Assembly: GCF_041886205.1 (NCBI RefSeq)
Contig: NZ_CP169029.1
Direction: 5' to 3' (one strand)
Length of the DNA stretch: 64,000 nt
From: Escherichia coli
Lineage (GTDB): Bacteria; Pseudomonadota; Gammaproteobacteria; Enterobacterales; Enterobacteriaceae
In this document: piece by piece, positions 17,101 through 20,100 of the stretch
Position numbering within the stretch: position 1 is the first letter of the stretch
Layout of the letters: every line of letters begins with the position of its first letter
Made by a program: the position numbers

Positions 17101-20100
17101 ATGCCATTCGCCAAGTGATCTTGATATATTAATACACCTTCCACCGTAATATTAACATGACCACTAATATCCACCGTGTTATTTTCACCACTGATCACGC
17201 CGCCGCTTATCGGAGTGATTTGTGCATCAGCGTTATCGCCGAGACTGGAATTAATATTAATGCTTCCGTCAACGCTAATATGGCTGTCATTACCCGTCAG
17301 GCTGAAACCTGTAGCACCCGGCGCATTGCCTTCGCTATCTGGTTGCTGGAATACGTTAATATCTCCGCTTAATTCAACCTGCTCACGGTCACCCACAATG
17401 GATACCCCAGTTCCGTATCGCGAAACATCAATTTCGCCCACGTTACCAAAAACTTCATCATCACCATCTATCAGAACTCCCACAGAACCGGAATCCGTAA
17501 CAACAATCTTGCCTTTATTACTTATCTGCGAGTTATTACCGGCGATATAAATACCCGTTGCCCCTCCGCTGACGTAGAGGTCACCTTCCTGGCTAATTGT
17601 TGCATTGTGCCCAGCAACTTTTGTCCCTACCGCATTCTCACCGTCAACCGTCATATCCCCGGCGATATTCATCTCATTGCCATCGCCAGTGATGGTTATA
17701 CCGGTGGCATTCTCACCCAAAATATTAAGATCATAGGTCGCCAGGGTAATACTATTGTTGTCGCCGATAATCTCCATGCCGGTTGTATCGTCTTTAACCA
17801 ACATCGAGCCAGCAAGCGAAATACTGCTGCTGTCCCCGGTGATTTTTACACCAGTACCGTTATTTGTCGTGGTGATGTCCCCCACATTGACAAAGGTAGT
17901 ATTATCACCATTGATTAACACGCCATAGGGGTTTCCATCACCGTCCGCCTGACCAACATTGATATCACCAATGTTCATAAAGGTTGTCTGATCGCCATCC
18001 AGCAACACACCGATGGAACTGTCATCCACCACAGTAATATTACCTTTATTACTGATGACAGTACCCTTACCCTCGGCGTCAATACCGTGTGCGCCACCGC
18101 TGACGTATAAGTCACCCTGCTGCCTTACAATGGCATCTTCGCCGATAATTTTTGACCCCGTTGAATTTGCACCATCAACGGTCATGTCGCCTTTGATTTC
18201 AACGCGGGCATCATCCCCTGTAATCACACTCCCCGTGCCTCCATTCGCGATTTCAACATCACCAACGGTGTCCAGCGTGGTACGATCGCCATTAACAATA
18301 ACTGCCGCCCCACCATCAACTTCCGTCTCACCATTATTAGTAATGGTGATATCATCACCGGTAAGAATACCTACCACCGAACCTTCACCAATCGCGGTAG
18401 TTTTGCCATCGTTGTTCAGGGTGATGTCGTTACCGTCAACGTTTATCACAACGCCGCCATTCAGCGCGATGTTGCCGCCATGGTCGGTAATAGTGGCATC
18501 GTTAATATGGAAATGTTCGCCAGTTGTACCGTCTGCGGTGGTGAGTGACTCTATGATTATTTCGATTTTTCCCGCTTCGTCATAGCGCCAGGTGGAGGTT
18601 CCGCCAGGATTGACGCCATTGAACGAAGCCGTGTTAGCCGCCTCGTCGACTAACCAATCCTTCACGATTGTGGTAGTGCCGCCAGGTCCGGTAAGCGTAT
18701 AGCTGCCATCGTCATTTTTGGTGTAGGTAAAGGTGGTATCACGTAATTTTAGGGTCTTCGCGTCCTGATCCCAGGTGACATCGTTTTTATAGACCACAGG
18801 ATCGTGTTTGACTGGCGTGTCATCGCCACCGTCGTCCGGGGTATCATCGCCGCCATCATCCGGCGGGACAGGTGTGTCGCCGCCATCATCCGGCACCGGA
18901 GACGGATCGTCATGATGATTATTATTATCGTGGAGTGCATATACTGCGACGCCTGTGACTGCCGCTGCCAGCCCCACTGCAGCCCAGGGTAATAACTCAT
19001 TATCTTCAACTGATTTACACTCTGCCGGCAGCTTTTCTAGCTGTTCTTTACTTAGTGATTTAATATTAGCCGGGCAGCTAATCTTGCTGGATTTACGAGA
19101 TTCATCCGATGTTTCCGCTATCGACGTATCTGCCGCCCATGTCTGACTGCTTAACGCCATTGCAACACAGACACTGAGCAATTTTTTCCTTTGCATATGA
19201 AATTCCTCATAAATAGATGATTACGCAGCCCAGATAAACTGCACAGGGTTAAATAGTTACAAATATTCGAAATCTGGATATTGTTTTTAACAGAATAAAT
19301 ATATTGATTTAGCGAATGCATTTATTCATTAAGTCAATACATCTTTTCTTTAATTTATATTTTTAACGCATTTATTTCAACTTAAAATATGACGCAATTG
19401 AGATTAAATCCGATAACACTGATGAATTAAATAATGCAATTAATTCATGAAATAAATAAATTATCATGTGAATGAAGCATTCATCATCGGCATCTATATG
19501 AAATTAAATGAAAAATAATTCTCAATAGCATTGCAGTTAATATTGAATATTTCAGGAGGTACAACCAGGCAGATTTTTCTCGACGAATACCGACTTATTA
19601 TTTTTGCAACCACATTCCGTTTATCCCGCGAATGTATTCTCCCGGCTTAGCTTTTGCTACCAGTTTCTGCCCCGCCAATTTTTCCACTTCCGCAACCGGC
19701 AGATTATTTTTCATGGCGAGTTGTTGATAGCTCTTATTACGCGATTCATTAATCCTTTTGACTAACATCTGTGTTTCGGTATCCGCCTTTAATGCAACCA
19801 GATAACCATTATACGTTTCGCCAACACGCCCCTGAGTTCGAGCGTCATCCAGCGTCAGAGCCATCGCACTGGTGCTAAATAAGGCATTAATGACAAAACA
19901 CAGTATTAAACTTCTCTTCATCATCGCCTCAGAAAAGATCGCTACGAGTTTCAAGCAGCTCTTCGACATCTTTGTCTGCCTTGATGATGATCTCATGCTC
20001 AATTTTAACGTTCATATTGATAGTGATCGGTTCCTTAGGTGCAGCGACTTCAATGCGAGGCGTACAGCCAACCAGCATAAAAGATGACGTCAACGCAGCC

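What the first reader, a model, noticed from the sequence alone, without database searches (positions are those of the whole stretch)
19197..19597. AT-rich 400-bp junction where K-12 carries the fea-tynA-paa island; the island is absent here
ydbA is followed directly by ydbL-ynbE-ydbH, whereas K-12 as I recall it has feaR, feaB, tynA, paaZ, paaA-K, paaX and paaY between them. The intervening 400 bp is strongly AT-rich, contains no ORF, and is both the ydbA promoter region and the likely island boundary. AT-rich upstream regions of large adhesin genes are typical H-NS-silenced targets.
Basis: partly seen in the sequence, partly recalled or inferred. Interest (0 to 1): 0.45.

Follow-up and report, generated by a model that had tools for sequence, protein, structure and literature searches.

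The report
Rare divergent ydbA–ydbL haplotype junction
The AT-rich 401-bp gap is real and the phenylacetate (fea-tynA-paa) genes are absent, which is common in E. coli; but the gap is not a deletion scar, it is the spacer and likely promoter region of a rare, very divergent version of the ydbA adhesin–ydbL segment whose true edges lie at the ydbL start codon and inside ydbA.

Summary
Window 19197-19597 is a 401-bp non-coding gap at 27% GC, the most AT-rich stretch of the 64 kb. It lies between a ydbA-family autotransporter gene and ydbL, with no fea/tynA/paa genes. The recalled K-12 gene order is correct.

The "island boundary" reading is not supported. The gap aligns no better than chance with either K-12 island flank or with the clean empty site of B2 strains. 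ydbL itself is only 68.5% nucleotide-identical to K-12 ydbL (dS 1.67, dN/dS 0.15), whereas the adjacent ynbE is 100% identical.

The variable segment therefore runs from inside ydbA (about 14400-15464) to the ydbL start codon (about 19926). This gap occurs in 114 of 5,426 complete E. coli genomes, and none of those carries paaZ. paaZ is missing from 42% of genomes overall, so loss of the island is ordinary and already published.

The 200 nt next to ydbA are conserved about as well as the flanking coding sequence, and the ydbL-side half is not. This fits a promoter and leader for ydbA. H-NS silencing is plausible: the equivalent K-12 region is H-NS-bound in ChIP-chip. It was not tested here. 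Interest is low.

The parts
13311..19196 (-). ydbA-family (BigA/YdbA) autotransporter gene, intact, 1961 aa
   Evidence: ORF. Pfam BigA_beta plus Autotransporter beta-domain in the C-terminal 1199 aa. NCBIfam auto_BigA scores 1329 bits, below the 3400-bit equivalog cut-off. The N-terminal 740 aa are 36% identical to K-12 YdbA_N; the C-terminal 1073 aa are 77% identical to K-12 YdbA_C.
14400..15464 (.). Left transition zone of the divergent segment, inside ydbA. Identity to K-12 falls from 96-99% to 83-93%, then is lost at 15464.
   Evidence: blastn end-point at 15464 against K-12 and 15465 against the B2 loci. Sliding identity.
15465..19196 (-). Passenger-domain-encoding part of ydbA, without nucleotide homology to K-12 or B2 alleles and mosaic even among carriers of this haplotype
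   Evidence: The whole protein is 78.8% identical to that of strain B20105. A length difference of about 150 bp from strain 6EVA lies in the proline-rich repeat near 18810-18894.
19197..19597 (.). The 401-bp AT-rich intergenic region (the finding)
   Evidence: Present in 114 of 5426 complete E. coli genomes at 91-100% identity, one copy each.
19197..19397 (-). ydbA-proximal half of the gap, conserved. Inferred ydbA promoter plus 5' leader.
   Evidence: 89-98% identical across five haplotype variants, against 74.5-98% for the distal half. The last 100 nt are 92% invariant. Folding is not better than shuffles, z -0.89.
19203..19208 (-). Shine-Dalgarno GAGGAA, 6 nt before the ydbA ATG
   Evidence: Read directly from the sequence. 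Invariant in all variants.
19352..19380 (-). The only sigma-70-like match in the gap: TTGAAA, 17 nt, TAAATT (9 of 12)
   Evidence: a consensus match only, with 1 site found against 4.5 expected in shuffles. It lies in the conserved block.
19398..19597 (-). [quoted passage not shown]
   Evidence: No terminator-like site on the minus strand. Fold z +0.58. 74.5% identity to L013, against 89% for the proximal half.
19598..19921 (-). ydbL, deeply divergent allele (107 aa)
   Evidence: 68.5% nt and 64% aa identity to K-12 ydbL; dN 0.247, dS 1.669. It is 64-67% identical to YdbL of every Escherichia, Citrobacter and Salmonella sequence compared. All family-invariant residues are kept.
19922..19928 (.). 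Right breakpoint of the divergent segment, at the ydbL start codon / ynbE stop codon. The last haplotype-specific base is 19926.
   Evidence: The same breakpoint is seen in all five carriers examined.
19929..20114 (-). ynbE, 0 differences from K-12
20111..22750 (-). ydbH, ordinary E. coli divergence from K-12 (dS 0.065)

Best explanation
The interval is the spacer between the ydbH-ynbE-ydbL operon and a ydbA-family autotransporter gene. All four genes are on the minus strand. The spacer belongs to a rare, deeply divergent haplotype of the ydbA(5' part)-spacer-ydbL segment.

This haplotype sits in an otherwise ordinary E. coli chromosome, 99.9% identical to strain 6EVA. Its right edge is a sharp junction at the ydbL start / ynbE stop. 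Its left edge is a graded junction inside ydbA. It carries no trace of the fea-tynA-paa cluster, so the gap is not a deletion scar of a K-12-like arrangement.

Functionally, the ydbL-side half is inferred to be a poorly constrained 3' flank of the operon. The ydbA-side 200 nt are inferred to be the promoter, leader and ribosome-binding site of the adhesin gene. The 27% GC makes the gap a likely target of H-NS-type silencing, as is documented for the positionally equivalent but non-homologous K-12 region.

Shown here: the anatomy, the breakpoints, the population frequency, the divergence, and the purifying selection on ydbL. Inferred: promoter function, H-NS binding, and how the haplotype arose (import from an unsampled relative, or an old polymorphism within Escherichia).
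For: - **Anatomy and composition:**
- **Identity profile against K-12:** 100% in ynbE, dropping to 60-76% across ydbL, with the gap not alignable.
- **ydbL divergence:** dS 1.67 against 0.065 for ydbH; dN/dS 0.15.
- **Breakpoint:** the same in five carriers.
- **Left edge:** (end-point 15464; sliding identity).
- **Genuine island-less derivatives of the common haplotype look different.** B2 strains keep both K-12 flanks fused (L005). AR_0089 keeps a paaY'-'feaR scar (L006).
- **Frequency:** the gap is in 114 of 5426 genomes, one copy each. That set is disjoint from the 3165 paaZ carriers.
- **Differential conservation:** the proximal and distal halves of the gap differ.
- **K-12 analogy:** the K-12 paaY/ydbA spacer is listed as an H-NS-bound promoter island (PMC3661553).
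- **Operon:** ydbH-ynbE-ydbL is an operon (PMC11126948).
Against: - No experimental transcription-start or H-NS data exist for this sequence.
- The simple sigma-70 scan found fewer sites (1) than in shuffles (4.5).
- The density of H-NS high-affinity motifs is explained by base composition alone.
- No donor species was found. The closest non-E. coli YdbL proteins are 64-69% identical, and six metagenome contigs with the conserved 26-mer are all E. coli-like.
- The origin by import therefore remains unproven.
Confidence: 0.8

Rival explanations
1. Simple deletion, or an ancestral empty site. On this reading the gap is the fused remnant of the K-12 ydbA-upstream and ydbL-downstream spacers, so the island boundary lies inside it.
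For: The island is absent and the gap sits exactly where K-12 has it. Such fused junctions do exist in other strains: L005, L006, and 1036 genomes with a contiguous junction.
Against: There is no similarity to either K-12 spacer or to the B2 fused junction beyond shuffles. A word-11 blastn found no partial matches in the other 5312 genomes. ydbL next to the gap is 31% diverged at the nucleotide level, while real deletion derivatives keep a K-12-type ydbL (94% nt identity).
Confidence: 0.03
2. The divergent module was imported by homologous recombination from an unsampled enterobacterial species outside Escherichia, in which ydbA lies directly next to ydbL.
For: The dS of 1.67 is far above the local within-E. 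coli value of 0.065. This YdbL is roughly equidistant (64-67%) from Escherichia, Citrobacter and Salmonella YdbL, and so branches outside them. The breakpoint at a gene boundary is sharp and abuts a 100%-identical ynbE.
Against: No donor was found in 100,044 species representatives, in 5.8 billion proteins or in metagenome contigs. All carriers found have Escherichia-type flanks.
Confidence: 0.45
3. The module is an old polymorphism maintained within Escherichia (a trans-lineage allele class), not a foreign import.
For: The haplotype family is itself diverse. The gap is 91-100% identical among E. coli carriers. It is 82% identical in contig L013, whose ynbE-nifJ flank is about 96.2% identical to all E. 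coli, while E. coli genomes are 97.6-98.7% identical among themselves. YdbL is fast-evolving in general: K-12 against E. albertii is 77%. A ydbL that combines both allele classes exists in a metagenome contig (P0014/L014).
Against: Named Escherichia species (albertii, marmotae, ruysiae) carry a different YdbL class. Saturated dS would require very long persistence. P0014 may be a metagenome assembly chimera.
Confidence: 0.35
4. The gap is a remnant of a mobile element or an integration site, or it hides a small gene or structured RNA.
For: It is AT-rich, many short inverted repeats were listed, and it contains small ORFs of 26-56 aa.
Against: It is single-copy in every carrier genome. There is no tRNA and no Rfam match. 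Folds are not better than shuffles. The best 15-nt-arm palindrome is matched by 60 of 300 shuffles. The small ORFs are broken in other variants.
Confidence: 0.03

Closest known systems
The feaRB-tynA-paaZABCDEFGHIJKXY region of heterogeneity in E. coli (b1384-b1400). Goldstone et al. 2016 (PMC4951805) describe it as variable between ydbH-ynbE-ydbL and ynbC-ynbD-azoR. Leimbach et al. 2017 (PMC5422975) report it missing in their B2 and E genomes.
   Same: It is the same chromosomal position, and the same genes are absent. ydbA is included in the heterogeneous stretch. paaZ is absent from 2261 of 5426 complete genomes.
   Different: Published descriptions treat ydbL as flanking core. Here ydbL itself and the spacer belong to the variable segment, as a 31%-diverged allele. 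This form is in only 2.1% of genomes.
Island-less junctions of the common haplotype: the B2-type clean junction (APEC 16-1068, type strain ATCC 11775) and the paaY'-'feaR scar (AR_0089)
   Same: ydbA lies next to ydbL without fea/paa, and an AT-rich spacer lies upstream of ydbA.
   Different: Those junctions are recognisable fusions of the two K-12 flanks, with 18,806 bp missing, and they keep K-12-type ydbL. The window's spacer shares no detectable similarity with them.
H-NS-bound 'promoter islands' of E. coli K-12, including paaY/ydbA at 1463061, 385 bp (Panyukov and Ozoline 2013, PMC3661553)
   Same: Same position upstream of ydbA, similar length (330-385 bp against 401 bp) and similar GC (25% against 27%).
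   Different: No sequence homology. No excess of promoter-like sites by the simple scan. H-NS occupancy is unknown for this sequence.
BigA/YdbA autotransporter adhesins (NCBIfam NF033178, Pfam PF25783 BigA_beta)
   Same: BigA_beta sandwich plus autotransporter beta-barrel, and a YdbA-like signal peptide and N-terminus.
   Different: It scores far below the BigA equivalog cut-off, 1329 against 3400 bits. The passenger domain is only 36-49% identical to other E. coli YdbA alleles.

Membership tests
Deletion/empty-site junction of the K-12-type fea-tynA-paa island | The spacer retains sequence homologous to the K-12 ydbA-upstream spacer and/or the feaR-ydbL spacer | tested here: not met
   Local alignment z-scores are 0.93, -0.34 and 0.63 against shuffles. 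blastn with word 11 finds the gap in only the 114 carrier genomes.
Deletion/empty-site junction of the K-12-type fea-tynA-paa island | The flanking ydbL is the common E. coli allele | tested here: not met
   68.5% nt identity and dS 1.67 against K-12. By contrast, B2 and K-12 ydbL are 94% identical.
Classical genomic-island insertion site | A tRNA/tmRNA target, flanking direct repeats, or an integrase | tested here: not met
   No tRNA in 12000-24000. No meaningful direct repeats in the gap. The ends of the K-12 segment absent from B2 share no repeat.
BigA/YdbA autotransporter family | BigA_beta sandwich domain followed by a C-terminal autotransporter beta-barrel | tested here: met
   PF25783 at 2.1e-23 and PF03797 at 1.4e-18.
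BigA/YdbA autotransporter family | Reaches the NCBIfam NF033178 (auto_BigA) whole-protein cut-off | tested here: not met
   1329 bits against a cut-off of 3400. It is a relative, not a BigA equivalog.
[quoted passage not shown] | Family domain, signal peptide, and position directly after ynbE | tested here: met
   Relatives 96-99% identical carry precomputed PF07027. All 48 invariant columns of a 14-sequence alignment are kept. It starts 7 nt (4-nt gap with the upstream ATG at 19924) after the ynbE stop. NCBIfam gave no hit.
H-NS-bound promoter island | A strongly AT-rich spacer of 300 bp or more upstream of a horizontally variable gene | tested here: met
   GC 0.272, the lowest in the 64 kb.
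H-NS-bound promoter island | An abnormally high density of promoter-like sites | tested here: not met
   1 site found against 4.5 +/- 2.6 in shuffles with the simple sigma-70 scan. The original definition uses a different algorithm (PlatProm), which was not available.
H-NS-bound promoter island | H-NS occupancy in vivo | not testable with these tools
   ChIP-chip evidence exists only for K-12 (PMC3661553 Table 1). The motif density here equals the expectation from composition.

The most novel reading that the evidence does not exclude
The ydbA-5'/spacer/ydbL module could be an ancient allele class kept in Escherichia by selection, with saturated synonymous divergence but an identical ynbE next door. 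It would link a variant YdbL, the chaperone-like modulator of the YdbH-YnbE lipid bridge, to a differently regulated surface adhesin. The variant YdbL would then have to work with an unchanged YnbE/YdbH despite 36% amino-acid replacement.
Probability: 0.15. Interest if true: 0.45.

Novelty: new member of a known kind. Interest (0 to 1): 0.2.

Why it matters
Absence of the phenylacetate/phenylethylamine genes is routine strain variation in E. coli and has been published. The result does carry three practical points.

- **Annotation.** Gene-order comparison by name hides that ydbL here is a xenolog-grade allele. "Island boundaries" can lie in neighbouring genes that keep their names.
- **A natural test of YdbL tolerance.** The variant is 64% identical yet sits beside an identical YnbE. 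It offers a natural experiment on which YdbL residues matter for YdbH-YnbE bridge control.
- **A candidate regulatory element.** The conserved 200 nt upstream of this intact ydbA allele could be examined by anyone studying expression of this normally silent adhesin family.

Tried and rejected
- **Alignment to K-12 spacers.** I aligned the gap to the K-12 ydbA-paaY and feaR-ydbL spacers and to the B2 empty site. Nothing exceeded shuffles.
- **RNA families and structure.** The Rfam scan at E<=1 gave only a spurious eukaryotic snoRNA hit inside ydbA. RNA folding of both halves of the gap was not better than shuffles.
- **Repeats.** The lists of inverted and direct repeats hold only short AT-rich matches. 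The best palindrome, at 19302-19339, is reached by 20% of shuffles. Tandem Repeats Finder found nothing in 13300-19700.
- **H-NS motif.** Counts of TCGATAAATT are 4.5-fold enriched over the window but equal the composition-matched expectation. There are only six A/T tracts of 4 or more, with no obvious helical phasing.
- **Small ORFs.** They are not conserved.
- **Donor search.** The scan of GTDB species representatives with window-type YdbL peptides returned only Citrobacter at 64% and an unrelated Arsukibacterium at 37%. The 5.8-billion-protein search showed a gap between 90% and 72% identity, and the 72% protein is a chimera. The metagenome scan with a conserved 26-mer returned only E. coli-like contigs.
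- **Citrobacter context.** The genes downstream of ydbL in L008 are not an autotransporter, so Citrobacter is not a model for this arrangement.

Full report
**What is at the coordinates.**

Window 19197-19597 is exactly the non-coding gap between two minus-strand genes. One is a 1961-aa ORF (13311-19196) and the other is ydbL (19598-19921).

The large ORF has a BigA_beta sandwich and an autotransporter beta-barrel. It matches NCBIfam auto_BigA well below the equivalog cut-off. Its signal peptide and N-terminus resemble K-12 YdbA. It is therefore a ydbA-family autotransporter gene, and it is intact here.

The gap has 27.2% GC. It is the most AT-rich 401-bp stretch of the 64 kb, where the mean is 50% with sd 4.9%.

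It holds no ORF of 60 aa or more. Its small ORFs are disrupted in other copies of the same gap. It gives no Rfam match, and no tRNA is nearby.

**K-12 order and absence of the island.**

A K-12-derived genome shows this order: ydbA' / IS2 / IS30 / 'ydbA, a 21-aa ORF, paaY-paaX-paaK...paaA, paaZ, tynA, feaB, feaR, ydbL, ynbE, ydbH.

None of that 18.8-kb block is in the window.

The window is 99.9% identical over 39.6 kb to E. coli strain 6EVA.

**Why the gap is not the island boundary.**

A base-by-base comparison with K-12 shows 100% identity through ynbE. Identity then drops abruptly to 60-76% across the whole of ydbL. The switch falls at the ydbL start / ynbE stop, and the last haplotype-specific base is 19926.

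- ydbL is 68.5% nucleotide- and 64% amino-acid-identical to K-12 ydbL.
- For ydbL, dN is 0.247 and dS is 1.669.
- ynbE has zero differences, and ydbH has dS 0.065.
- The same breakpoint is present in all five carriers examined.

On the other side, identity to K-12 is 96-99% through pdxI and the ydbA barrel. It declines from about 14400 and is lost at 15464.

The gap itself has no similarity beyond chance to three comparators: the K-12 paaY-ydbA spacer, the K-12 feaR-ydbL spacer, and the fused spacer of island-less B2 strains.

Genuine island-less derivatives of the common haplotype are easy to recognise.

- APEC 16-1068 and the type strain carry a clean fusion of both K-12 flanks. It lacks 18,806 bp and shows no direct repeats.
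- AR_0089 keeps a paaY'-'feaR scar.

The window is a third state. It is a divergent haplotype spanning the 5' part of ydbA, the spacer and ydbL.

**Population picture.**

- The 401 bp occur once each in 114 of 5,426 complete E. coli genomes (2.1%), at 91-100% identity. A word-11 blastn found them nowhere else.
- paaZ is present in 3,165 genomes (58%).
- A concatenated junction+paaZ query returned exactly 3,279 genomes. The two sets are therefore disjoint, and the "paa elsewhere in the same genome" refutation fails.
- Absence of the island is published. Goldstone et al. describe the paa-ydbA stretch as a region of heterogeneity between ydbH-ynbE-ydbL and ynbC-ynbD-azoR (PMC4951805). Leimbach et al. 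found it missing in their B2 and E genomes (PMC5422975). E. coli B is reported to have lost it (PMC3032704).

**Origin of the haplotype.**

Window-type YdbL proteins at 90-99% identity are all labelled E. coli. The next hit, at 72%, is a chimera of the two allele classes in a metagenome contig next to feaR-feaB-tynA. That contig may be an assembly chimera. Everything else is 64-69% identical, whether from Escherichia, Citrobacter or Salmonella.

No donor turned up in 100,044 species representatives. None turned up among metagenome contigs carrying a conserved 26-mer either.

One Logan contig (L013) has the same arrangement. Its gap is 82% and its ydbL 91% identical to the window. Its ynbE-nifJ flank is about 96.2% identical to every E. 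coli compared, while those E. coli genomes are 97.6-98.7% identical to each other.

The haplotype family is therefore old and diversified within Escherichia-like genomes. I cannot separate import from an unsampled relative from an old polymorphism. In either case dN/dS of 0.15 and retention of all family-invariant residues indicate a functional ydbL.

**Likely function of the gap.**

ydbH-ynbE-ydbL is an operon (PMC11126948), and ydbA follows on the same strand. Among five variants, the 200 nt next to ydbA are 89-98% identical. That is about as conserved as the flanking coding sequence, which is 87-91% against L013. The 200 nt next to ydbL drop to 74.5%.

The conserved half contains two features.

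- An invariant GAGGAA lies 6 nt before the ATG.
- It also holds the only sigma-70-like match, TTGAAA-17-TAAATT at 19380-19352.

I infer that the conserved half is the ydbA promoter and leader, and that the other half is a weakly constrained operon 3' flank. No canonical terminator and no significant RNA structure were found.

H-NS silencing is plausible. The positionally equivalent K-12 spacer is 25% GC and not homologous to this one. It is listed among the H-NS-bound "promoter islands" (PMC3661553), and K-12 ydbA is poorly transcribed (PMC5811629). For this sequence, however, the motif density is only what its composition predicts. The simple scan shows no excess of promoter-like sites.

**Verdict.**

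This is ordinary strain variation in a known heterogeneous region. The modest twist is that the neighbouring "core" gene ydbL and the spacer belong to a rare, deeply divergent allele class, already present in 114 RefSeq genomes.

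Noticed in passing
window 9507-9515 (ORF 8037-9707, minus): About 1.6 kb present in K-12 (3' part of ynbA, all of ynbB, 5' part of ynbC) is missing here, leaving a ynbC'-'ynbA fusion. Strains 6EVA, G6/7 and MB06232 have the same truncated genes annotated as pseudogenes, so this deletion travels with at least part of the divergent ydbA-ydbL haplotype. B20105 has ynbA-C in full, with ynbB annotated as having an internal stop.
   Followed up: partly
window 9872-12184 (ORFs 9872-11506 and 11564-12184, minus): ydbD (a DUF2773 bactofilin, 768 aa in K-12) is split into ORFs of 544 and 206 aa. This matches the 'internal stop' pseudogene annotation in strain 6EVA.
   Followed up: partly
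window 13311-19196 compared with L010 13965-20000: The autotransporter gene is intact here (1961 aa). In the 99.9%-identical strain 6EVA it carries an internal stop at codon 779 and is about 150 bp longer in the proline-rich PVPPDDGGDTP repeat near window 18810-18894. Within the haplotype the passenger domain is mosaic: 78.8% aa identity to B20105, and only patchy 73% nt similarity to G6/7.
   Followed up: partly
L014 (ENA ERZ27281845 k141_182094) 39-365: This ydbL has a 5' third of the window type and a remainder of the K-12 type, and it lies next to feaR-feaB-tynA. It is either a natural recombinant between the two allele classes or a metagenome assembly chimera.
   Followed up: no
L013 (Logan SRR14866762_106): This contig has the same ydbH-ynbE-ydbL-spacer-autotransporter arrangement. 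Its conserved flank is about 96.2% identical to every E. coli compared, outside the 97.6-98.7% range seen among E. coli genomes. It may come from a divergent Escherichia lineage that carries a deeper branch of this haplotype.
   Followed up: partly
Protein set P0018, P0021, P0077, P0087, P0100: YdbL is unusually variable across Escherichia in general. K-12-type YdbL is only 73-77% identical to YdbL of E. albertii, E. marmotae and E. ruysiae, which are 79-86% identical to each other. Some proteins labelled E. coli or 'MULTISPECIES Escherichia' carry the ruysiae-like class. E. coli thus seems to hold at least three YdbL allele classes next to an invariant YnbE.
   Followed up: partly
window 28537-28937: This is the second most AT-rich 401-bp stretch of the window (GC 0.32). 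It lies in the spacer between nifJ/ydbK (ends at 28541) and ompN.
   Followed up: no
window 19598-20002 (minus): The mechanical ORF list gives a 134-aa TTG-started ORF that extends ydbL upstream across the end of ynbE. The real ydbL start is the ATG at 19921 or 19924. The long form is an ORF-calling artefact.
   Followed up: yes
E. coli genome search: One of the 114 copies of the junction is on a record typed as a plasmid rather than a chromosome. Small numbers of 'plasmid' hits were also seen for paaZ. I did not examine these records.
   Followed up: no
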